A stretch of 64,000 nucleotides of DNA from Escherichia coli (GTDB lineage: Bacteria > Pseudomonadota > Gammaproteobacteria > Enterobacterales > Enterobacteriaceae), in assembly GCF_003790525.1 (NCBI RefSeq), contig NZ_CP033635.1. One strand, written 5' to 3'. The translations under genes were made by a program, and so were the position numbers. The notes under the pieces were generated by a model, which was not told the DNA's origin, ran no database searches, and worked only from the letters and a program-made list of their open reading frames with translations. The number at the start of each line of letters is the position of its first letter. Position 1 is the first letter of the stretch. Below, one piece after another: positions 51,630-64,000 of the stretch.

Positions 51630-52973
51630 GTGAGCAATCTGTCGCTCGATTTTTCGGATAATACTTTTCAACCTCTGGCCGCGCGTATGCGGCCAGAAAA
51701 TTTAGCACAGTATATCGGCCAGCAACATTTGCTGGCTGCGGGGAAGCCGTTGCCGCGCGCTATCGAAGCCGGGCATTTGCATTCTATGATCCTCTGGGGG
51801 CCGCCGGGTACCGGCAAAACAACCCTCGCTGAAGTGATTGCCCGCTATGCGAACGCTGATGTGGAACGTATTTCTGCCGTCACCTCTGGTGTGAAAGAGA
51901 TTCGCGAGGCGATCGAGCGCGCTCGGCAAAACCGCAATGCAGGTCGCCGCACTATTCTTTTTGTTGACGAAGTTCACCGTTTCAACAAAAGCCAGCAGGA
52001 TGCATTTCTGCCACATATTGAAGACGGCACCATCACTTTTATTGGCGCAACCACTGAAAACCCGTCGTTTGAGCTTAATTCGGCACTGCTTTCCCGTGCC
52101 CGTGTCTATCTGTTGAAATCCCTGAGTACAGAGGATATTGAGCAAGTACTGACTCAGGCGATGGAAGACAAAACCCGTGGCTATGGTGGTCAGGATATTG
52201 TTCTGCCAGATGAAACACGACGCGCCATTGCTGAACTGGTGAATGGCGACGCGCGCCGGGCGTTAAATACGCTGGAAATGATGGCGGATATGGCCGAAGT
52301 CGATGATAGCGGTAAGCGGGTCCTGAAACCTGAATTACTGACCGAAATCGCCGGTGAACGTAGCGCCCGCTTTGATAACAAAGGCGATCGCTTTTACGAT
52401 CTGATTTCCGCATTGCATAAGTCGGTACGTGGTAGCGCACCCGATGCGGCGCTGTACTGGTATGCGCGAATTATTACCGCCGGTGGCGATCCGTTATATG
52501 TTGCGCGTCGTTGCCTGGCAATTGCTTCCGAAGATGTCGGCAATGCCGACCCACGGGCGATGCAGGTGGCAATTGCGGCCTGGGATTGCTTTACTCGCGT
52601 TGGCCCGGCGGAAGGTGAACGCGCCATTGCTCAGGCGATTGTTTACCTGGCCTGCGCGCCAAAAAGCAACGCTGTCTACACCGCGTTTAAAGCCGCGCTG
52701 GCCGATGCTCGCGAACGTCCCGATTATGACGTGCCGGTTCATTTGCGTAATGCGCCGACGAAATTAATGAAGGAAATGGGCTACGGGCAGGAATATCGTT
52801 ACGCTCATGATGAAGCAAACGCTTATGCTGCCGGTGAGGTTTATTTCCCGCCGGAAATAGCACAAACACGCTATTATTTCCCGACAAACAGGGGCCTTGA
52901 AGGCAAGATTGGCGAAAAGCTCGCCTGGCTGGCTGAACAGGATCAAAATAGCCCCATAAAACGCTACCGTTAA
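51630..52973 (+). CDS. rarA: Replication-associated recombination protein A (AAA+ ATPase)
   Basis: 447 aa; GPPGTGKTT Walker A; GTG start. Confidence 0.9.
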
Positions 52974-53042: not shown

Positions 53043-54356
<1,314 letters not shown>

Positions 54357-54376
54357 TACCCAATTTTTCTGAATCT

Positions 54377-54399
54377 AAAAAGCGCCTGCGGGCGCTTTT
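54377..54399 (+). terminator. serS terminator
   Basis: AAAAAGCGCCTGCGGGCGCTTTT. Confidence 0.65.
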
Positions 54400-54554
54400 G
54401 CATGGTACTTAACTATATGAAAATAAATGGATTTTATTTTCATGTGTCCAGATAATGTCCATCTTTGAAGAAAAAAGTCCACAATACTGACGTTGTGGGC
54501 TTTTCTTTTTCCTGATGGTGTCGTGCCGTCAGTGCAACGAACCAAAGGGAGGGG

Positions 54555-54782
54555 ATGTTGATGTTGTTTTCCCTTCGCACCAGCTTTAAAGCCACTCTTG
54601 TTAACGATGATGGTACGCCACGGATCACGGCCGAGGTGAGGAATGTGACACCTGATGATATCGGGAAGGTGGCGGAACTTGTCAGGGATGTTTTTGGTAC
54701 TCCTTCCGGTACCTGCCGTTCAGACTCTGCGGCCAGGGTTGACAGGCAGGATGTTAACGCCGGGTGGCTTACGCGCCTCTGA
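54555..54782 (+). CDS. Hypothetical small protein (75 aa), possible distant paralogue of the 71-aa array protein
   Basis: Strong SD AGGGAGGGG before ATG; convergent with hok-like copy 1; shares the M.LF..R...GTP pattern with the 57756 ORF. Confidence 0.4.
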   Translation: MLMLFSLRTSFKATLVNDDGTPRITAEVRNVTPDDIGKVAELVRDVFGTPSGTCRSDSAARVDRQDVNAGWLTRL

Positions 54783-54932
54783 ATGATGATGCCCTCACTG
54801 GTGAGGGTGACAAAAAAGCCCTCTCAATGGCGGGCAAATCTGGTTTTTTGTTTTGTCTCTACAGGGAAAGGGCGCCATATCGGCCCACCCCAACAACCGG
54901 ATAGCGGGGAATTTCTCCCCCGCTGCGGTTTC

Positions 54933-55073
54933 TTACGGTTTACACTGCAAGAACGCCGCAAAACGCGCTCCCCAGATATCAAAGCTGAATTCACATAACG
55001 AATCGTGGACCATCCAGATGACCAGGGTTATTGTCAGGCATAAAATGCCAACAATAATCGTTTTTTGCGGTAT
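54933..55073 (-). pseudogene. Hok/Gef-family toxin homologue, copy 1, start codon ATG->ATA
   Basis: Hand-translated ...LCLTITLVIWMVHDSLCEFSFDIWGARFAAFLQCKP; the position aligned to the ATG of copy 2 is ATA (TAT at 55071-55073 on the + strand); overlapping mok-like frame 54991..55173. Confidence 0.45.
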
Positions 55074-55314
55074 AGCGCTTGCTCCTTTTACAAAGAGGCG
55101 CTAACCTTCCACTTGTCACGGTAGGAAGGGTCAGGCCTCGGTTAAACACAGATGTTTTCCGGGGCCTTTCCACATCCGGCCTTCAGGTTTTCCCTCCGGC
55201 CATCAGCCGAAAGGCACCCGTTTCTTTTTGTTGCGGCAATATTTCAGGTGTCAGTTGGGGTGGGCTGTATCTTGTCTGATGCATAAAAAAATGCCCGCGC
55301 TTTGGCGGGCAAAA

Positions 55315-55496
55315 GACAAGACTTTTCGTTTGTATATCATGGATAATGGACACCCCTTCCTGTTGTCAGGTGGCAGGCACCCGTGGTTAATCTACTGTTT
55401 TTGTGCTTTTGTCTCAACCCTGAAGTTTTCATGGAAAATCAGGGTTGCTTCATATGTGCCAGGAAGGTGCGGCTATGATAACTGCCAAAAAAAGCC
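55315..55496 (-). ncRNA. Structured repeat element X1 (candidate sRNA, subtype a)
   Basis: ~170 bp bounded by hairpins; internal perfect stems (CAACCCTGA...TCAGGGTTG, CCTTCC...GGAAGG); no SD-led ORF. Confidence 0.3.
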
Positions 55497-55525
55497 CGCT
55501 TTCCGGCGGGCAAAACAGCAATGTG

Positions 55526-55683
55526 AGTTGTCTGTCATTGATACTGGACAGCCTTCCTGTTGTCAGGTGGAAGGTACCCGTGGTTAATCTACTGTCTTTG
55601 TGCTTTTGTCTCAACCCTGAAGTTTTCATGGAAAATCAGGGTTGCTTCATGTGAACCAGGAAGGTGAGGCGATGGTAACCGCC
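55526..55683 (-). ncRNA. Structured repeat element X2 (candidate sRNA, subtype b)
   Basis: Near-identical core to X1 with a different distal end (CAGCAATGTGAGTTGTCTGTCATTGATACTGG). Confidence 0.3.
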
Positions 55684-55930
55684 AAAAAAATGCCCGCTTT
55701 CCGGCGGGCAAAACAAGGAAGTACGGATCATGTATTATTGATTACGAGGCATTCCACCATGCCCACGTTTAATTTAGCTAGTTTTCATTTTATTCACAAT
55801 ATAGTTACTTATCATATTTATGAACAAAACTGTAATTTCATCTATAGGTATAAGTGATTTGCATTAACATGTTTCTTCTGTATTGCTGTTGGTTTTCCGA
55901 TGCTGATATTTATGATACATTCAGGGGCAA

Positions 55931-56135
55931 ATGAGGTTGTTCCACAGAAACGATGTTGAGATATTTCTGCTCCAGAAAGGACAAGCTAAAAAAATAAAGT
56001 GAAATTATGATATGTCAGGGATGTTCAGGCATGTCAGTGTCTTATTAATAAACTCGTTGCTGCTGTAATAACACCAAAAAAATCAAAGCATAATCTGCAT
56101 GTTGTTCCTGATGACCCAATAACCACAAAAGAATA
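55931..56135 (+). pseudogene. Degenerate copy of the small array protein gene (frameshift/early stop)
   Basis: Begins MRLFHRNDVEI... then stops after 23 aa; the downstream DNA still aligns with the intact copy through ...CTGATGACCC(A/C)ATAACCACAAAAGAATAA. Confidence 0.4.
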
Positions 56136-56164
56136 AAAAAATGCCCGCTTTCCGGCGGGCAAAA

Positions 56165-56333
56165 CAGCAATGTGAGTTGTCTGTCATTGATACTGGACAC
56201 CCTTCCTGTTGTCAGGTGGAAGGCACCCGTGGTTAATCTACTGTCTTTGTGCTTTTGGCTCAACCCTGAAGTTTTCATGGAAAATCAGGGCTGCTTTGTG
56301 TGCGCCAGGGAAGGCGCCTCGATGGCAGGCGCA
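56165..56333 (-). ncRNA. Structured repeat element X3 (subtype b)
   Basis: Copy of X2 between hairpins at 56134 and 56333. Confidence 0.3.
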
Positions 56334-56586
56334 AAAAAAATGCCCGTGCTTCGGCGGGCAAAATAAGGAAGTACAGGTTACATGTTATTGATAAAGTAGC
56401 ATTGCTCTGTCCGTCTTTAATCTAACGAGTTTTGAGTTTTTTCACAATATTGTTACCTGTCATGTTATAGATGAAACTGCAATTTCATCTATAGGTATAA
56501 ATGATTTGTATTAATGTGTGTCCACTGTTTGTCTGCTTTCTGGTTTTCAGTTGACTGTGTTTCTGATGAATTCAGGAGGTTGTCTT

Positions 56587-56685
56587 ATGAGGCTGTTCCA
56601 CAGAAACGATATTGAGATTGAACTGCATTTCTCCTCCGGTGAGGATAAGGTTAAATCATTGTTGATGAAAAAAACAAAGATTTAA
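56587..56685 (+). pseudogene. 3'-truncated copy of the small array protein gene
   Basis: MRLFHRNDIEIELHFSSGEDKVKSLLMKKTKI*; AGGAGG SD; identical to the intact copy for 23 codons, then diverges. Confidence 0.35.
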
Positions 56686-56937
56686 TTTATTGATATAAAG
56701 GATTTGTATCAGCGTATGTCCACGCAGTGACCACATTTTCGAGAGGTAGAGTAAGCCCGCAACATTGCGGGCTTTGTCTTATAGTCTGATCACTGTTTCA
56801 AGTCGGTGAGGACACCAAAAAGAAAACCCGCAGTTTTTATGCTGCGGGTTTGTTGTTCATGTCTGTGAGATAGGGTGCCTTATCGACCTTACCCTGGCAA
56901 CCGATTGACGGGGGATTGCTCCCCCGTCGCGGTTTCC

Positions 56938-57078
56938 TTACTTCTTACATTGTAAGAACGCCGCAAACTCCGCTCCCCAGAAGCTCATCCGTATTTCGCA
57001 CAGCGAACCGTGCAATATCCAGATGATGAGGATTGCCGTCACGCAGAACGTGATGGCCGTAAGCGATTTTTGCGACAT
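56938..57078 (-). CDS. Hok/Gef-family type I toxin homologue (46 aa), copy 2, intact
   Basis: Hand-translated MSQKSLTAITFCVTAILIIWILHGSLCEIRMSFWGAEFAAFLQCKK: TM helix plus SLCE(I/L)R and AAFLxC signature of Hok proteins; fully overlapped by a mok-like frame (56945..57178). Confidence 0.65.
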   Translation of the reverse strand: MSQKSLTAITFCVTAILIIWILHGSLCEIRMSFWGAEFAAFLQCKK

Positions 57079-57335
57079 AGCACTTGCTCCTTTTCCGGAG
57101 AGGCGCTAACCTTTCACTTGTCAAGGTAATGCGGTTAGGGCCTCGGTTAAACAGAAATGTTTTCCGGGGCCTTTCCACATCCGGCCTTCAGGTTTTCCCT
57201 CCGGCCATCAGCCGAAAGGCACCCGCGCGTAATTTAACTGTTTCTTTTTGTTGCGGCAATATTTCAGGTGTCAGTTGGGGTGGGCTGTATCTTGTCTGAT
57301 GCATAAAAAAATGCCCGCGCTTCGGCGGGCAAAAA

Positions 57336-57504
57336 ACAAGACTTTTCGTTTGTATATCATGGATAATGGACACCCTTCCTGTTGTCAGGGGGAGGTACCC
57401 GTAGCTAATCTACTCACTTTGTGCCCGCAGCTCAACCCTGAAGTTTTCATGGAAAATCAGGGCTGCTTTGTGTGCGCCAGGGAAGGCGCCTCGATGGCAG
57501 GCGC
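57336..57504 (-). ncRNA. Structured repeat element X4 (subtype a)
   Basis: Copy of X1 between hairpins at 57305 and 57505. Confidence 0.3.
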
Positions 57505-57755
57505 AAAAAAAATGCCCGCTCTCCGGCGGGCAAAACAATGATCTACGTCACATTATATTGATAACCGGGCATTCCTCCATGCCCATTTTTAATTTAGCCA
57601 TTTTTCATTTTGTTCACAATATAGTTATCTATCATATTCATGAATGAAATTATAATTTCATCTATAGGTATAAATGATTTGTGTTAATATGTTTCTCCTG
57701 TCTAACTGTTTTCTCATTTTTCGATACTAGTATTTCTGATATATTCAGGGGGCGT

Positions 57756-57971
57756 ATGAGATTGTTCCGAAGAAACGATATTGAGATTGAACTGCATTTC
57801 TCCTCCGGTGAGGATAAGGTTAAATCAATAAAGGTGAAACTAAGACATGCCCGGGATGTTCAGGCGTGTCAGTGTCTTATTGATGAACTCGTTGCTGCCG
57901 GAGGAACGCCAAAAAAACAAAAATATAATCTGCACGTGGTTCCTGATGACCCCATAACCACAAAAGAATAA
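57756..57971 (+). CDS. Small basic protein (71 aa), intact copy of the array family
   Basis: MRLFRRNDIEIELHFSSGEDKVKSIKVKLRHARDVQACQCLIDELVAAGGTPKKQKYNLHVVPDDPITTKE; GGGGG SD; AT-rich promoter-like region upstream; two degenerate paralogues nearby. Confidence 0.5.
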   Translation: MRLFRRNDIEIELHFSSGEDKVKSIKVKLRHARDVQACQCLIDELVAAGGTPKKQKYNLHVVPDDPITTKE

Positions 57972-58113
57972 AAAAATGCCCGCTTTCCGGCGGGCAAAAA
58001 ACAATTTAGGTCATATTTCATCATGGATAATTAAATACTTGCCCGTGGTTGCGGGAAAGTATCTGCCGTTAATCTACTTGCCTTATGATGTCCTCTCAAC
58101 CTGATTATTGTTC

Positions 58114-58365
58114 TTAAATATCAAGATTAATCTGAGTATTCCCCCTGTGAGATCCCGGAAAATCTTCCCACGGTATCCGCTCTGTACCCTGCGGCGACGG
58201 GGCGCGTTTTGATGTGAATTTGTTAAAACCCTCCAGTGTGGTAAAGCCGATCCCGCATTCGAGGTTATTGCACTGGTAGTACTTCAGGCGAACTGTGCCT
58301 GAATCATTTTCATTGCGACTGGTGCGGATACGTGCGGATGCACCGCATAGGGGACAACGGAACAT
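58114..58365 (-). CDS. ogr: Ogr/Delta-family zinc-finger late transcription activator
   Basis: MFRCPLCG...YYQCNNLECG: CxxC...CxxxxC spacing as in P2 Ogr. Confidence 0.8.
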   Translation of the reverse strand: MFRCPLCGASARIRTSRNENDSGTVRLKYYQCNNLECGIGFTTLEGFNKFTSKRAPSPQGTERIPWEDFPGSHRGNTQINLDI

Positions 58366-58408
58366 GGCTTCTCCTTATCTGGCTGAGTGGAGATGGCTCA
58401 TTTTAATT

Positions 58409-59500
58409 TTATCCGCCTGAATCTGCTATCCATTCGGGGATTTTCGCTTCCAGCTCCAGTTGTGTGGTGAAGCCGCTTTCATCTATGATGTGCTCCACCC
58501 TGGCAATAATCCAGTCCTGATTGTCCACCTCGCTTTTAAAACCTGTTACCCTGCCGTGCATTTCGGGATACAGGTCGGCACGACCCCGTGCCAGAGTGAT
58601 GGAGAATGCCGCTGCTCCCCGCTGTAACTCCTGCCACTTTGCCGCAGCTGCACGTCGTGCGGTTTCTTCATTCTGGTAAGTCCTGCGCAGAACGTAGACG
58701 TTCCCTTCCGCGCCTTCCATGTAATCACCCTCCCGGCTGCTGCTCTTCTCCTGTTTCTGTTTCCCGGCTTCCCTGCGTCGCTTCACGTTCACTTTTTTCT
58801 TGTGCCCGAACTTCAGATCGAGCCAGTGCGCCCGGACCCCCGTATACGCATCACGGTCAGCAATGCGAAAGCGGTGACTGTCGCCGCTGCTGCGGGTAAT
58901 GGCGAACGAAGGCAGGGCTCTTCCGTCCGGCCCGGTTCCGCCACCCGGCAGAATGAATAACAGGCTGCCGTTTTTTACGGTGGCAATCGCACCCAGCATT
59001 TCAGCCATGCGGGTCAGGAAGGATATATCGCTCTCTTCGGTCTGGTCAGCGTGGTCAATTTCGATATCCATGAGGATTTCGCTTATCTGTGTCTTCAGGC
59101 CGTAGCGGTGAGCGATGGCTGACACAACCTGTTTTACGGTCACGTCGTGCCAGGATACCTCCCGCCTCACGTTGAACTCTTCCCGAAAATCTGCGCTGCT
59201 GGCGGTGATGATCAGTTTATCTGGAGGTCCTTCCCACGCAACCTCATCAACGACGTAGGTGCCCTTGTTAACCAGTGATTCTCCTCGCCAGCCAATCATC
59301 ACTCTCAGGCGTGCGCCACGTGGTGGCAACTGTAACTGCCCGTCCGTATCGTCAAGGGTGAGGGTGACGCGGTCTGCCTCAAAGGCCCGGTTATCCGTCA
59401 GGGTCAGCGTCATGAGTCGCTCTGTGAGGTTTGCCAGTGTGTTGTTGTTGATGGTGATGTCGATATCCGGTGACGGAACGGTAACTGACAGCTCTTTCAT
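58409..59500 (-). CDS. P2 gpD-like tail protein (late control D)
   Basis: ...LTLTDNRAFEADRVTLTLDD...DISFLTRMAE...SGDSHRFRIADRDAYTGVRAHW... parallels P2 D; start at MKELSV with AGGAGAG SD. Confidence 0.8.
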   Translation of the reverse strand: MKELSVTVPSPDIDITINNNTLANLTERLMTLTLTDNRAFEADRVTLTLDDTDGQLQLPPRGARLRVMIGWRGESLVNKGTYVVDEVAWEGPPDKLIITASSADFREEFNVRREVSWHDVTVKQVVSAIAHRYGLKTQISEILMDIEIDHADQTEESDISFLTRMAEMLGAIATVKNGSLLFILPGGGTGPDGRALPSFAITRSSGDSHRFRIADRDAYTGVRAHWLDLKFGHKKKVNVKRRREAGKQKQEKSSSREGDYMEGAEGNVYVLRRTYQNEETARRAAAAKWQELQRGAAAFSITLARGRADLYPEMHGRVTGFKSEVDNQDWIIARVEHIIDESGFTTQLELEAKIPEWIADSGG

Positions 59501-59661
59501 GGTGTTCTCTCCTGGTGCGTTCTGTAATGGTTTCATGCACCGCAGCGGCGTTGAATGGCTGTTTTGTTGTCGCTGTCAGGAGACAACATCAAAGGGGTGA
59601 GATTACCGCGTGTGTGGGTAATGATTACGCAAAATCAACCAGCCAGACAAGGGTGAAACAT

Positions 59662-60945
59662 ATGAGTGAAACACGCTTTCATGGTGCGCGCGTAAGGGAA
59701 AGTACCGGCCTTGCCACCGCCATTAATGATGTGGATTCCAGTGTTATTGGTATTGTGGCTACGGCAGATGACGCGGATGAAACTCTGTTCCCGCTGAACA
59801 AACCCACACTGCTGACCCGCGTCAGTGATGTGCTGGGTAAGGCCGGCACAAAGGGGACGCTTTACAAATCGCTTAAGGCTGTCGCCGACCAGGTGAGCAC
59901 GAAGGTGATTGTGGTGCGCGTTCCTGATGCCAGTTCTCAGGGCGCCCCGGATACAGGAGTTACATCATTCGGTCATCTGGATCCTGAAGACAGGGCATTT
60001 TTTGGTATTGATGAGTCTGAAGATGCACATCCTGTATACCCACACAAAACGCAGGACCAGTATGTCATTGGTGGCACGGATGGCGACGGTAATTATACCG
60101 GTATGTATGCACTTCTGATAGCTGAACAGGATGATGCCATCGGTTACCGTCCGCGCATCATCGCAGCTCCCGGACTGGATACTGAAGCTGTCACAAAATC
60201 CCTGTGTGTAATTGCAGAAAAACTTCGCGCATTTGTCTACGCGGGCTGTCACAACTGCAAGAAGCCCGCCGATGCAATCAGCTACCGCGCCAGATTTAAC
60301 GAGCGCGAACTTATGCTGGTCTGGCCGGACTTCATCGCCCATAACCCGAAATCCGGCGCTAATGAGGTCTTCCCGGCTGTGGCGTACGCCTGCGGTTTAC
60401 GTGCACGTATTGACCACGAACAGGGCTGGCATAAATCGCTGTCCAACGTGCCGGTAAGAAATGTGCTGGGTATTTCCAGCCCGGTGTTCTGGTCCCTTCA
60501 GTCCGAAGACAGCGATGCCAACAATCTCAACAACAAGGAAATCACTACCATCATTTGCCGTAACGGTTTCCGCTTCTGGGGCAACCGTACGCCGGAAACG
60601 AAGGCGTATATCTTTGAGGTGTACACGCGAACCGCTCAGGTGCTGGCTGATTCCATTGCGGAAGCGCAGTTTGAAACGATTGATGCCCCGCTGACCCCTG
60701 CTAATGTGAAAGACGTGTTAAGCGCAATTCGCGCAAAACTGGATGCGCTGGTTACGTCAGGACGTCTCATTGGTGCGGAGTGCTGGTATGACGTGGTGGA
60801 TAACAGCACCACGGAACTTCGTCAGGGACGCGTGCGTATCCGCTACAAGTACACGCCCGTTCCGCCGCTTGAGGATATGGAACTTTACCAGGCGTTTACT
60901 GATGAATTCTTTGGTCCTGCATTTGCGACGCTTGGAGGTGCTTAA
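59662..60945 (+). CDS. Contractile tail sheath protein (P2 FI-like)
   Basis: ...ETLFPLNKP...KLRAF...RELMLVWPDF...RIDHEQGWHKSLSNV...GFRFWGNRT...YTRTAQVLAD...YTPVPPLE collinear with P2 FI. Confidence 0.85.
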   Translation: MSETRFHGARVRESTGLATAINDVDSSVIGIVATADDADETLFPLNKPTLLTRVSDVLGKAGTKGTLYKSLKAVADQVSTKVIVVRVPDASSQGAPDTGVTSFGHLDPEDRAFFGIDESEDAHPVYPHKTQDQYVIGGTDGDGNYTGMYALLIAEQDDAIGYRPRIIAAPGLDTEAVTKSLCVIAEKLRAFVYAGCHNCKKPADAISYRARFNERELMLVWPDFIAHNPKSGANEVFPAVAYACGLRARIDHEQGWHKSLSNVPVRNVLGISSPVFWSLQSEDSDANNLNNKEITTIICRNGFRFWGNRTPETKAYIFEVYTRTAQVLADSIAEAQFETIDAPLTPANVKDVLSAIRAKLDALVTSGRLIGAECWYDVVDNSTTELRQGRVRIRYKYTPVPPLEDMELYQAFTDEFFGPAFATLGGA

Positions 60946-61463
60946 TGGCCGTACCAAAAAATCTCAGGGTGTTCACGCTGTTTACTGACGGGGTGAACCA
61001 GATTGGCAGGGTGACCGGCTTCACGCCCCCCAAACTGACCCGTAAAACGGAAGCCTATCGCGGTGGTGGTATGGCCGGCGCGGTGAATATCGACCTTGGT
61101 CTGGATGACGGCGCGCTGGATGCGAGTTTCACCATGGGCGGGCCGACCCGCGAACTGTTCCTTAAGTACGGCGGCACGATCGACGGTACGCTGCTGCGCT
61201 TTGTCGGTGAGTACTACAACGATGAAGAGCAGAGCGACCTGTATGAAATTGAGCTTCGCGGCCGCGTGACGGAAATTGATACGGGGGAGGCAAAACAGGG
61301 TGAGGTCACGTCTCACACCTATGCGGTCAGGAGTACCTACTACAAACTCAGCATTAACGACCGTCCGGTGCTGGAGATTGATTTACTGAACCACATCGAA
61401 CGCAAGGACGGCAAAAACGTCTTCCCGGACCGCGTGCGCTCGGCGATTGGTCTTGGTGGTTAA
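60945..61463 (+). CDS. Tail tube protein (P2 FII-like)
   Basis: ...PPKLTRKTEAYRGGGMAGAVNIDLGLDDGALD...EIDTGEAKQGE...; ATG overlaps the FI stop (TAATG). Confidence 0.85.
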   Translation: MAVPKNLRVFTLFTDGVNQIGRVTGFTPPKLTRKTEAYRGGGMAGAVNIDLGLDDGALDASFTMGGPTRELFLKYGGTIDGTLLRFVGEYYNDEEQSDLYEIELRGRVTEIDTGEAKQGEVTSHTYAVRSTYYKLSINDRPVLEIDLLNHIERKDGKNVFPDRVRSAIGLGG

Positions 61464-61513
61464 TGTTTCCCACGGCGGCGCGCGGCGTCGCCCCCTGATT
61501 TGAGGTTTTATGC

Positions 61514-61876
61514 ATGAAAGAAAATCCGGTTGTTGCCCCTGTTACTGACGGTGCTGATGCGGCGGACGTGACCAGTGAGCGCGGCGTGACGCTGAAAACG
61601 CCCCTTGTGCTCGGTAACAAAAAAATCACGTATGTGGAAATCACGCCTGCTGTACAGCAGGCCGGTTCACTGCGCGGGCTGTCACTGCTTGACGTGCTGA
61701 ACATGAAAACGGACGCGATGTTTGAGTTACTCCCGCGCGTCACTTCGCCGCGACTGGACGAGGTTCTGCTTAAGCGCATGGGGTCCGCTGATTTTATTCA
61801 GCTGTGCGGGGTGGCGGTTAATTTTTTGGCCGGTCAGGACTCTGGCGGGAAGAGCGGGGCGGCGACGGCAGGCTGA
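61514..61876 (+). CDS. Tail assembly chaperone (P2 E-like); a -1 frameshift at TTTTTTG would give an E'-like product ending at 62040
   Basis: Position between tube and tape-measure genes; slippery TTTTTTG at 61823-61829; -1 frame open to 62040 (...ITVVPFEHIEDFVADIAVIFNWSPAEIF...). Confidence 0.65.
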   Translation: MKENPVVAPVTDGADAADVTSERGVTLKTPLVLGNKKITYVEITPAVQQAGSLRGLSLLDVLNMKTDAMFELLPRVTSPRLDEVLLKRMGSADFIQLCGVAVNFLAGQDSGGKSGAATAG

Positions 61877-62026
61877 TAACCGTCGTGCCCTTTGAGCACA
61901 TTGAAGACTTTGTGGCGGATATCGCCGTTATTTTCAACTGGTCTCCCGCTGAAATCTTCCTGATGGATCCCGGCGAGGTGGTCGCCTGGCGTGAGCGGGC
62001 GGCCCTTCGCAGCGGGAACGCAGAGC

Positions 62027-64000
62027 ATGAAAACGCTTGATATACGGGTCGCCTTCAGCGCTGTTGACAGGCTGACCCGTCCCACCGAAAACGCCCGTCG
62101 CATGATGGGCCAGCTTGGCGACTCCATACAGAGAACGCAGGGTGCGATCAAAAACCTGGAACGCTACGCCCGTTCATTTGATCGCGCCCGCGAGGCTGCA
62201 AACAAGGCCGGAAACGGCATTGTCAGGGCGCAACGCCAGTTAAGCGCACTTCAGCAAATTCAGCGCGCCGGAACCGTGCTGTCTGACAAACAGAAAAAGC
62301 TGATGAACGATTTGAGCCTCAAACTTGAGCGTCTCAATGAGGTCCGTGCGCGTGAAGTTCAGCGAATGCGCGAACTGGGTGGTGAGCTGCGGCGCCACGG
62401 TATTGCGCTTTCCGGCAGTGACAACACCATTCAACAGGCCATACGGCGAACACAGCAATACAACGACCAGCTGGAACGCGAACGGCAGGCGCTGGCACGT
62501 GTCACGCAGGCACGCCAGCAATATTCCCGTGCTCAGGAGACGGCGGGAAAACTTAAAACGGTCGGACTTACGGCGGTTGGTACGGCGGCGGCAGGCGGCT
62601 ATGCGGCCGGACGTTTCCTGCAACCGGCGGTCAGTTTTGGTAAGGAGATGTCACGCGTCCAGGCGCTGACCCGTATTGACAAAAACAGTCCGCAGTTTAA
62701 GGCGCTGCGCGAACAGGCCATTAAGCTGGGCTCTGAAACGCAGTTTACCGCCGGTGATGCTGCCAGCGGTCAGGCGTTCCTTGCCATGGCCGGCTTCACA
62801 CCACAGGCCATACAGGCGGCGCTACCCGGCGTGCTTGATCTGGCAATGGCTGCAGGGATGGACCTGGGACAGACTGCCGATATCAGTTCGAATATCCTCA
62901 CACAGTTTGGTCTGTCCGCTGACCAGATGGATCGCGTGGGTGACACGCTGGCCGCCACCTTCACACGAACCAATACGGATCTCCGTTCACTGGGTGAAAC
63001 CATGAAGTACACGGGTCCGGTTGCAGCTTCACTTGGCCTGTCCCTTGAACAGGCGGCAGCCATGACGGGTGTCCTTGGCAGTGTGGGGATCCGTGGAAGT
63101 GATGCAGGTACGGCGCTGCGTGCCAGTCTGTCACGTCTGGTTGATCCGCCGAAGGCCGCTGCAATGGCACTGAAAGAGCTTGGCGTGGAGACGCAGAATG
63201 CTTACGGGAACATGCGCCGGATGGAAAATATCCTGAATGAGCTGTACCAGGCCACCCGAAAATACGGTAATGCCGCGCAGGTCTCCTTTTTCAGGGCTAT
63301 TGCCGGGCAGGAGTCCTATGTTTCCCTGATGAATCTTGTCACTGCGGCGGGGGAAAATAATCTTCCCCGTCTTACGCAGGAGATTGAACTGGCCACCGGG
63401 GAACTTAATCACACTGCCCGTGTTATGGCTGATAACCTGGACGGTGACCTGAAATCACTGAACAGCGCATGGGAAGGACTGCGTATCCGTGTCGCTGACC
63501 TCGTTGACGGGCCGCTGCGTTCTGTCACGCAGTCGTTCACCCGGGTTATTGCGAAAGTCACCGCGCTGGCTCAGGCGCACCCTGAACTGACAAAACAACT
63601 GCTGATTGCCGGTGGTGTACTGCTGGCTGCGGTTGCGGCCATGGGGGCGCTGTCACTTGCCACTGGTGTGTTGATGGGGCCGCTGGCAAAACTGCGTCTT
63701 GGGTTTGCCCTGCTGACCGGCACATCCGGCCTCGGTCGTGCGCTGCCGTTACTGACGCAGCTGCGCGGCGTACTCGGTGGTCCGCTGGGCGGTATCGGTG
63801 GCTGGCGCGTGCTGTTTGTCGGTATCACCTCCGGTGCCGGACGGTTTGCTGCACTGCTGGGCGTAGTTGCGGGGCGGCTTCGTGGTGTGCAGGCGGGACT
63901 TGGCGCGCTGCGTGGTGGTCTGCTGGCTGCGTTCACTTCACCTGGCGGCGCACTGATTTCACTGGGGCGCGGTATCGGAATACTGGCGCTCAGACTGTCA
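62027..64000 (+). CDS. Tail tape-measure protein (P2 T-like); 3' end lies outside the window
   Basis: Hand-translated frame open from ATG 62027 to the window end (MKTLDIRVAFSAVDRL...); coiled-coil N-terminus and Gly/Ala-rich hydrophobic segments; absent from the ORF track because no stop lies in the window. Confidence 0.7.
   Translation, partial: MKTLDIRVAFSAVDRLTRPTENARRMMGQLGDSIQRTQGAIKNLERYARSFDRAREAANKAGNGIVRAQRQLSALQQIQRAGTVLSDKQKKLMNDLSLKLERLNEVRAREVQRMRELGGELRRHGIALSGSDNTIQQAIRRTQQYNDQLERERQALARVTQARQQYSRAQETAGKLKTVGLTAVGTAAAGGYAAGRFLQPAVSFGKEMSRVQALTRIDKNSPQFKALREQAIKLGSETQFTAGDAASGQAFLAMAGFTPQAIQAALPGVLDLAMAAGMDLGQTADISSNILTQFGLSADQMDRVGDTLAATFTRTNTDLRSLGETMKYTGPVAASLGLSLEQAAAMTGVLGSVGIRGSDAGTALRASLSRLVDPPKAAAMALKELGVETQNAYGNMRRMENILNELYQATRKYGNAAQVSFFRAIAGQESYVSLMNLVTAAGENNLPRLTQEIELATGELNHTARVMADNLDGDLKSLNSAWEGLRIRVADLVDGPLRSVTQSFTRVIAKVTALAQAHPELTKQLLIAGGVLLAAVAAMGALSLATGVLMGPLAKLRLGFALLTGTSGLGRALPLLTQLRGVLGGPLGGIGGWRVLFVGITSGAGRFAALLGVVAGRLRGVQAGLGALRGGLLAAFTSPGGALISLGRGIGILALRLS

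What the first reader, a model, noticed from the sequence alone, without database searches (positions are those of the whole stretch)
61823..62040. Programmed -1 frameshift site for the E/E' tail chaperone pair
The slippery heptamer TTTTTTG in the E-like gene, with the -1 frame open for ~70 more codons and ending where the tape-measure gene starts, is the conserved frameshift architecture of tail assembly chaperones.
Basis: partly seen in the sequence, partly recalled or inferred. Interest (0 to 1): 0.3.

Follow-up and report, generated by a model that had tools for sequence, protein, structure and literature searches.

The report
P2-type tail chaperone frameshift site
This is the ordinary, well-known ribosomal -1 frameshift site that lets a P2-like prophage of E. 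coli make two tail-assembly proteins (E and the longer E+E') from one start codon; it is real, but not new.

Summary
Confirmed, and ordinary. Gene E (61514-61876, 120 aa) lies between the tail tube gene FII and the tape-measure gene T of a P88-like (Xuanwuvirus, Peduoviridae) prophage next to serS in E. coli. It runs 70 sense codons to TGA 62038-40 and overlaps the T start (ATG 62027) by 14 nt. The predicted fusion, join(61514..61828,61828..62040), is 175 aa. It aligns without a break across the junction to P2 E+E' (2e-27). Its extension matches Pfam Phage_P2_GpE (4e-12). In all 85 sequences examined (80 related viral contigs, four reference phages and the window itself) E' is in the -1 frame, with a canonical heptamer at the same spot (TTTTTTG, AAATTTT, CCCTTTC or TTTTTTA). 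The most variable codon position changes from the E frame to the -1 frame at the heptamer. 32 of 56 distinct relatives have no start codon for E'. No conserved downstream RNA structure was found, as reported for P2. RefSeq annotates E and a 51-aa 'GpE family' ORF separately, and the fusion is in no protein collection searched. That is an annotation gap, not new biology. Fusion synthesis and its ratio to E are inferred, not measured.

The parts
61514..61876 (+). Gene E, zero-frame product of 120 aa (tail assembly chaperone, P2 gpE homologue). GAGG at 61502-61505 lies 8 nt before the ATG.
   Evidence: ORF and translation. BLASTP against P2 gpE 2e-14. phrog_103 4.7e-31. RefSeq CDS WP_000662443.1 'hypothetical protein' at the same coordinates.
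61822..61828 (+). Slippery heptamer T_TTT_TTG (zero-frame codons AAT TTT TTG = N103 F104 L105).
   Evidence: Sequence. Register check. Same heptamer at the homologous F-L in P2, 186, P88 and Chuche. Columns 61822-24 and 61827 are invariant in 75 distinct relatives, while flanking third positions have diversity 0.5-0.65.
61819..61821 (+). TAA stop in the -1 frame directly before the heptamer. It sets the 5' limit of any productive shift, so the shift must occur between 61822 and the E stop at 61876.
   Evidence: Translation of the -1 frame.
61828..62040 (+). E' extension read in the -1 frame: 70 codons plus TGA (62038-62040). The predicted fusion E+E' is join(61514..61828,61828..62040), 175 aa.
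   Evidence: Pfam PF06528 on fusion residues 134-169. phrog_1756 5.7e-33 on residues 98-172, spanning the junction. Contiguous alignment to P2 E+E', 2e-27. AF2 model pLDDT 86.7, above 90 across the junction.
61885..62040 (+). The 51-aa ORF that RefSeq annotates as a separate 'GpE family phage tail protein' (GTG start, no Shine-Dalgarno). Read here as the C-terminal part of E+E', not a gene of its own.
   Evidence: -1 frame constraint already holds upstream of this GTG. 32 of 56 distinct relatives have no ATG/GTG/TTG there.
62027..64000 (+). Tape-measure gene T, which runs off the window end. Its ATG overlaps the end of E' by 14 nt.
   Evidence: Pfam PhageMin_Tail 1.1e-52. RefSeq annotation. 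Intact 1115-codon ORF in the near-identical locus L001.
60945..61463 (+). Tail tube gene FII, directly upstream of E.
   Evidence: Pfam Phage_tube 1.8e-44.
59662..60945 (+). Tail sheath gene FI.
   Evidence: Pfam Phage_sheath_1, Gp18_domIII_N and Phage_sheath_1C. RefSeq start.

Best explanation
This is the E/E+E' programmed -1 ribosomal frameshift cassette of a P2-like (P88-like, Xuanwuvirus) prophage. Most ribosomes translating gene E terminate at 61876 and make the 120-aa chaperone E. A minority slip back one base while tRNA-Phe (on UUU) and tRNA-Leu (on UUG) sit on U_UUU_UUG at 61822-61828. Both tRNAs re-pair with UUU_UUU, and the ribosome continues in the -1 frame for 70 codons, giving the 175-aa fusion E+E', which ends 14 nt inside the tape-measure gene. 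By analogy with P2 E/E+E' and lambda G/GT, E coats the tape-measure protein T. The rarer E+E' also coats T and carries the E' domain, which by analogy recruits the tube protein, so that tube and sheath polymerise on a T scaffold; neither protein stays in the virion. Shown here: the anatomy, homology of both parts to P2 E and E', conservation of a canonical heptamer at this codon, and the switch of the selected reading frame at the heptamer. Inferred: that the fusion is actually made, its proportion, and the chaperone roles. The shift appears to rely on the heptamer alone, with no conserved downstream RNA structure.
For: Anatomy. Position between the tube gene and the tape-measure gene. Homology: E against P2 E 2e-14; E' against P2 E' 7e-16; fusion against P2 E+E' contiguous across the junction, 2e-27; PF06528 above its cut-off; phrog_1756 spans the junction. 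tblastn of the fusion hits 396 phage records, and 58 of the 60 listed match in two pieces, i.e. two frames. All 85 sequences examined (80 viral contigs, four reference phages and the window) have E' in the -1 frame with a canonical heptamer in the overlap. The heptamer is replaced by another canonical one (A_AAT_TTT, C_CCT_TTC, T_TTT_TTA) rather than lost. Six more distant phages (Burkholderia x2, Ralstonia, Shewanella, Vibrio, Zymomonas element) have T_TTT_TTG/C/T at the same spot, and a Mannheimia phage has G_GGA_AAG. Minimum substitutions per codon position are 111/84/201 upstream of the heptamer (E-frame third position dominates). Between the heptamer and the annotated GTG they are 22/34/21 (-1 frame third position dominates). 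The two zones differ (chi-square p = 2.5e-5), and the second is indistinguishable from the rest of E' (p = 0.14). 32 of 56 distinct relatives have no start codon for E'. KS5 and FLC5 carry joined E+E' CDSs, and the phage 186 record notes the frameshift. Literature: P2 TTTTTTG, E 91 aa, E+E' 142 aa (PMC3091744); lambda G/GT mechanism (PMC5009743). The AF2 fusion model is confident through the junction.
Against: There is no direct evidence of the fusion protein for this prophage. The heptamer itself is common in the window. The window's E does not reach Pfam Phage_TAC_7 on its own, although 21 of 24 aligned homologues do. No stimulatory RNA element was found, so efficiency cannot be argued from sequence. 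A GTG at 61885 could in principle start a separate 51-aa product, as RefSeq annotates. The substitution counts come from related, not independent, sequences. In a near-identical prophage (F1022) the terminase gene is truncated, so the cassette may no longer be used to make virions.
Confidence: 0.93

Rival explanations
1. Two separate genes, as RefSeq annotates them: E (120 aa), and an independently initiated 51-aa 'GpE family' protein starting at GTG 61885, with no frameshift.
For: RefSeq and several phage records list two separate CDSs. The exact 51-aa sequence is on at least 999 contigs under that name. A GTG exists at 61885.
Against: There is no Shine-Dalgarno before GTG 61885. 32 of 56 distinct relatives have no ATG/GTG/TTG in that stretch. 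The 19 codons between the heptamer and the GTG already show -1 frame constraint and a conserved G.W..ERGGDG motif whose third positions vary. phrog_1756 and the P2 alignment run across the junction. This rival gives no reason for a canonical heptamer to be kept at that codon in all 85 sequences. In P2, E' is reported to be made as a -1 extension of E (PMC3091744).
Confidence: 0.04
2. Transcriptional slippage: RNA polymerase adds one U on the T6 run, and the altered mRNA encodes the fusion without any ribosomal shift.
For: The site is a homopolymeric T6 run. An insertion of one U would give the same frame change and nearly the same protein.
Against: From own knowledge, efficient RNA polymerase slippage usually needs runs of about 8-9 or more. 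33 of the 85 related sequences have A_AAT_TTT_ATG or C_CCT_TTC_TTG, with runs of only 3-4 identical bases, yet keep the X_XXY_YYZ register. That is what tandem tRNA slippage needs, not what polymerase slippage needs.
Confidence: 0.02
3. A chance overlap or a decayed gene: a frameshift mutation or sequencing error split one ancestral gene, and the heptamer is coincidental.
For: TTTTTTG occurs 28 times in the window, not more than chance. The prophage may be defective in relatives.
Against: The 801-bp segment 61400-62200 is 100% identical in 8 of the complete E. coli genomes listed and at least 99% identical in 24. The same two-frame arrangement is found in 396 phage records from Escherichia to Burkholderia and Vibrio. 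Both frames are open and under constraint.
Confidence: 0.01

Closest known systems
Bacteriophage P2 genes E and E+E' (-1 frameshift at TTTTTTG in the FETUD tail operon; Christie et al. 2002, as cited in PMC3091744)
   Same: Identical heptamer in the same register at the homologous F-L codons. E' is in the -1 frame and ends overlapping the T start. Both halves are homologous (35% and 49% identity). The cassette lies between FII and T. No downstream RNA structure was found.
   Different: The window's E has a longer N-terminus and a longer zero-frame tail (16 codons after the heptamer against 6). E' is 70 rather than 57 residues, with an extra roughly 13-residue segment (G.W..ERGGDG) that the AF2 model folds as a beta-hairpin. 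The window's E misses Pfam Phage_TAC_7. D and ogr are on the opposite strand rather than downstream of U.
Escherichia phage P88 / Xuanwuvirus (Peduoviridae) tail module
   Same: Same gene order (ogr and D on one strand; FI, FII, E, E', T, U on the other). The fusion is 73% identical. E' has 70 codons and overlaps T by 14 nt.
   Different: P88 has two overlapping heptamers (A_AAT_TTT_TTG), while the window has only T_TTT_TTG and a -1 stop directly before it. The DNA is only about 79% identical.
Lambda G/GT and the conserved tail-assembly-chaperone frameshift of tailed phages (Xu, Hendrix and Duda 2004; reviewed in PMC5009743)
   Same: [quoted passage not shown] The presumed role is the same.
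   Different: No sequence similarity to lambda G or T was detected: the Pfam and PHROG hits are to P2-type families only. This is a contractile tail, and the heptamer differs.
E. coli dnaX -1 frameshift
   Same: Tandem slippage on an X_XXY_YYZ heptamer by bacterial ribosomes.
   Different: dnaX uses an upstream Shine-Dalgarno-like element and a downstream hairpin (own knowledge). Here no downstream structure is conserved and the local folds are no better than shuffles.

Membership tests
P2-type E/E+E' frameshift cassette (Peduoviridae) | Located between the tail tube gene (FII) and the tape-measure gene (T) | tested here: met
   Phage_tube 60945-61463 and PhageMin_Tail from 62027. RefSeq annotation of the near-identical locus.
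P2-type E/E+E' frameshift cassette (Peduoviridae) | Upstream ORF homologous to P2 gpE | tested here: met
   BLASTP 35% identity over 88 residues, 2e-14. phrog_103 4.7e-31.
P2-type E/E+E' frameshift cassette (Peduoviridae) | Overlapping ORF in the -1 frame homologous to E' (Pfam PF06528 Phage_P2_GpE) | tested here: met
   PF06528 4e-12, 45.8 bits against a cut-off of 23. 49% identity to P2 E', 7e-16. All 24 aligned family members match PF06528.
P2-type E/E+E' frameshift cassette (Peduoviridae) | Canonical X_XXY_YYZ heptamer in the E frame inside the overlap, at the conserved F-L codons | tested here: met
   T_TTT_TTG at 61822-61828, same as P2, 186 and P88. A canonical heptamer is present in all 85 sequences examined.
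P2-type E/E+E' frameshift cassette (Peduoviridae) | E' has no translation start of its own | tested here: inconclusive
   The window has a GTG at 61885 without a Shine-Dalgarno. 32 of 56 distinct relatives have no start codon. -1 frame constraint begins at the heptamer.
P2-type E/E+E' frameshift cassette (Peduoviridae) | The fusion protein is actually made at a low fixed proportion and is essential for tail assembly | not testable with these tools
   This needs a reporter assay, a western blot or mass spectrometry, plus complementation. I recall P2 being reported at about 10%; that paper was not held.
Pfam PF10109 Phage_TAC_7 (tail assembly chaperones E, 41, 14) | Score above the gathering cut-off (25 bits) | tested here: not met
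   No hit for the window's E even at E <= 10, whereas P2 gpE scores 47 bits. 21 of 24 aligned homologues match at E <= 0.01. The window protein is therefore a divergent relative that the model misses, rather than unrelated.
Lambda G/GT-type tail assembly chaperone pair | Architecture: two ORFs between the tail or tube gene and the tape-measure gene, linked by a -1 shift | tested here: met
Lambda G/GT-type tail assembly chaperone pair | Sequence or fold similarity to a solved or named chaperone | tested here: inconclusive
   No PDB match by sequence or by Foldseek (best E 0.37). In BFVD there are two unnamed 83-89-aa viral proteins at E about 5e-4, and named 'tail assembly chaperone' models only at E 0.03-0.6.
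Stimulator-dependent -1 frameshift sites (dnaX-like or viral pseudoknot type) | Conserved RNA hairpin or pseudoknot 5-9 nt downstream of the heptamer | tested here: not met
   MFE z-scores -0.48 and -0.94. RNAalifold on 13 diverse relatives predicts 0 pairs. This agrees with the report for P2 and the KS phages.

The most novel reading that the evidence does not exclude
The only mildly new point is comparative. In this P88-like lineage the slip site is not fixed. It moves by one codon between T_TTT_TTG and A_AAT_TTT or C_CCT_TTC, and forms carrying both heptamers at once also exist (AAATTTTTTG, CCCTTTTTTG). No conserved RNA stimulator was found in any of them. If heptamer identity alone sets the E:E+E' ratio, these natural variants would be lineage-specific tunings of chaperone stoichiometry. 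The window would be the single-site T_TTT_TTG form, with a -1 stop placed directly before the site.
Probability: 0.2. Interest if true: 0.3.

Novelty: already known. Interest (0 to 1): 0.1.

Why it matters
Its main value is for annotation. RefSeq and several phage records list E as 'hypothetical protein' or 'tail protein' and list the 3' part of E' as a separate 51-aa 'GpE family' gene. The 175-aa fusion is absent from a collection of about 15 billion proteins, although both pieces occur on at least 999 contigs. Annotating join(61514..61828,61828..62040) would restore a tail-assembly protein that is probably essential. Biologically it adds one more instance of a conserved mechanism. The heptamer variants among relatives are a small natural series for studying how stimulator-free frameshift efficiency is set.

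Tried and rejected
1. Downstream stimulatory RNA: folding 61829-61880 and 61829-61920 gave energies no better than shuffles. RNAalifold on 13 relatives gave no pairs. The conserved G-rich stretch (GAACGnGGnGGnGACGG) varies at -1 frame third positions, so it reflects the ERGGDG peptide, not an RNA element.

2. An upstream Shine-Dalgarno-like stimulator: GGGGTGG lies 8-14 nt upstream in the window, but it is not conserved in P88-type relatives. I dropped it.

3. Independent initiation of E' was rejected.

4. NCBIfam gave no family for E, the fusion or P2 E+E'.

5. A PDB sequence search and a Foldseek search of the PDB found no solved relative. BFVD gave only weak named chaperone hits.

6. Christie et al. 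2002 (PMC135442) is not held, so the P2 facts are cited through PMC3091744.

7. Rfam on 54000-64000 gave no family at the gathering score.

8. The second anatomical candidate in the window (TTTAAAG at 52686) was set aside because it lies inside the annotated rarA range; its frame was not checked.
Full report
**Observation.** The region reads GCG GTT AAT TTT TTG GCC GGT in the frame of an ORF at 61514-61876 (120 aa).

In the -1 frame a TAA at 61819-61821 comes directly before TTT TTT, so that frame opens exactly at the heptamer. It then stays open for 70 sense codons, to TGA at 62038-62040. The next gene starts at ATG 62027, 14 nt before that stop, and is a tape-measure protein (PhageMin_Tail, 1.1e-52).

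The heptamer alone means little: there are 28 copies in the window against 21.3 expected. The anatomy is rare, though. Of 111 in-frame X_XXY_YYZ heptamers in 141 long stop-to-stop ORFs, only two lie near an ORF end with a -1 extension of at least 40 codons. The other one lies inside the range annotated as rarA, so its open -1 frame is probably the rarA frame itself, which I did not check.

**Context.** The window is E. coli chromosome. The 801-bp segment 61400-62200 is 100% identical in several complete E. coli genomes. It belongs to a P2-like prophage inserted between serS and dmsA. Its nearest named phages are P88, Chuche and other Xuanwuvirus members (Peduoviridae), at about 75-79% DNA identity.

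The local genes are:
- ogr, 58114-58365 on the minus strand;
- D, 58409-59536 on the minus strand;
- FI sheath, 59662-60945;
- FII tube, 60945-61463;
- E, E' and T.

**Homology.** The conceptual fusion join(61514..61828,61828..62040) is 175 aa.
- Its extension matches Pfam PF06528 Phage_P2_GpE at 4e-12, above the cut-off.
- phrog_1756 matches it at 5.7e-33, with an alignment that crosses the junction.
- I rebuilt P2 E (91 aa) and E+E' (142 aa) from the P2 genome with the same slip rule. The lengths equal the published ones (PMC3091744).
- The window fusion aligns to P2 E+E' without a break through the junction: 36% identity, 2e-27. The two halves are also significant separately, at 2e-14 and 7e-16.
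- The F-L pair encoded by the heptamer is invariant among the window, P88, P2 and 186.
- The window's E alone does not reach Pfam Phage_TAC_7, while P2 gpE does. However, 21 of 24 aligned homologues match it. I read this as a divergent member that the model misses.

**Comparative evidence that the shift is used.** A tblastn of the fusion hits 396 phage records, and 58 of the 60 listed match as two pieces in different frames. I examined 85 sequences: 80 related viral contigs, four reference phages and the window itself. In every one, E' is in the -1 frame relative to E, and a canonical heptamer lies in the overlap at the same spot.

The heptamer is not always the same. The 85 sequences divide as follows:

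| Heptamer(s) at the site | Sequences |
|---|---|
| TTTTTTG alone | 17 |
| AAATTTT and TTTTTTG, overlapping | 24 |
| CCCTTTT and TTTTTTG, overlapping | 9 |
| A_AAT_TTT only | 19 |
| C_CCT_TTC | 14 |
| T_TTT_TTA | 2 |

A slippery site replaced by another slippery site, rather than lost, is what selection for frameshifting predicts. More distant phages also keep T_TTT_TTG/C/T at this position (Burkholderia, Ralstonia, Shewanella, Vibrio and a Zymomonas element), and a Mannheimia phage has G_GGA_AAG.

Substitution patterns across 75 distinct nucleotide sequences change at the heptamer:

| Zone | Minimum changes at E-frame codon positions 1/2/3 | Dominant position |
|---|---|---|
| Upstream of the heptamer | 111/84/201 | E-frame third position |
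| Heptamer to the annotated GTG at 61885 | 22/34/21 | -1 frame third position |

The two zones differ (p = 2.5e-5), and the second does not differ from the rest of E' (p = 0.14). These sequences are related, so the p-values are indicative only.

In the overlap, many changes alter the E tail but are silent in E', and a G.W..ERGGDG motif is conserved in the -1 frame. 32 of 56 distinct relatives have no ATG, GTG or TTG in the -1 frame before the conserved E' domain.

An AlphaFold2 model of the fusion, built from an alignment of 24 conceptual fusions, is confident (pLDDT 86.7, pTM 0.76) and has a helix running through the junction. This is weak support, because the alignment assumes the fusion.

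**Mechanism.** The best explanation is tandem -1 slippage of tRNA-Phe and tRNA-Leu on U_UUU_UUG, giving mostly E and a minority of E+E'.

No stimulatory RNA was found. Local folds are no better than shuffles, and 13 diverse relatives share no predicted pair. This agrees with what is reported for P2 and the Burkholderia KS phages.

Transcriptional slippage is unlikely. One third of the relatives have runs of only three or four identical bases but still keep the X_XXY_YYZ register.

The roles of the two proteins are inferred from P2 and from lambda G/GT. E would coat the tape measure, and E+E' would additionally link it to the tube protein. From memory, the P2 study reported about 10% frameshifting and showed E' to be essential. 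That paper was not available here.

**Comparison and novelty.** This is an orthologue of the P2 E/E+E' cassette, and more broadly of the conserved tail-assembly-chaperone frameshift of tailed phages. It differs from P2 in four minor ways:
- a longer E N-terminus;
- a 16-codon rather than 6-codon zero-frame tail after the heptamer;
- a roughly 13-residue insertion at the start of E';
- a tail module in which D and ogr face the other way.

Some phage records carry the joined CDS (KS5, FLC5), and the phage 186 record notes the frameshift. RefSeq, however, annotates this prophage as 'hypothetical protein' plus a separate 51-aa 'GpE family phage tail protein'. The exact fusion is in no protein collection searched, although both pieces are on at least 999 contigs.

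The finding is correct, already known in kind, and of low interest beyond fixing the annotation.

Noticed in passing
window 54900-58000: The stretch between serS (53064-54356) and ogr is AT-rich (GC 0.38-0.44). It is made of diverged direct repeats of 70-230 nt at spacings of about 650, 1170, 1830 and 2005 nt, apparently two to four copies of a hok/gef-type unit. RefSeq annotates only one Hok/Gef CDS (window 56938-57078, minus strand) and leaves about 2.6 kb without features. No Rfam family reached the gathering score.
   Followed up: partly
window 61474-61492: A GC-rich hairpin (GGCGGCGC-GCG-GCGUCGCC) sits in the FII-E intergenic space. Phage 186 has an annotated partial terminator (tI) at the same place, which would lower E/T expression relative to sheath and tube. 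The fold is not better than shuffles (z = -0.34), and the terminator scan did not call it.
   Followed up: partly
L005:3200-3209, L008:2285-2291, L058:2231-2237 and similar loci: Relatives carry different slip sites at the same codon: A_AAT_TTT_TTG (two overlapping heptamers), A_AAT_TTT_ATG, C_CCT_TTC_TTG, C_CCT_TTT_TTG and T_TTT_TTA. The site appears to move by one codon through forms that carry both heptamers.
   Followed up: partly
window 58114-59536 (minus strand) versus 59662-64000 (plus strand): D and ogr are transcribed divergently from FI-FII-E-T, unlike the single FETUD operon order of P2. Phages P88 and Chuche share this arrangement.
   Followed up: no
L001:12592-15939 (continues window 62027 onward): RefSeq flags the tape-measure gene as a partial pseudogene missing its C-terminus and leaves 1.1 kb unannotated. 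The locus nevertheless contains one uninterrupted 1115-codon ORF ending just before gene U. This is probably an annotation artefact.
   Followed up: partly
L094:16920-18322: In the near-identical prophage of E. coli F1022, the terminase gpP gene is annotated as truncated next to a short portal gene. This prophage lineage may be unable to package DNA, even though the tail cassette is intact. That part lies outside the window.
   Followed up: no
window 59515-59661: The sheath ORF can be extended upstream to a GTG at 59515 (476 aa), overlapping the start of D on the other strand. RefSeq starts it at ATG 59662 (427 aa), which fits the Pfam sheath domains.
   Followed up: no
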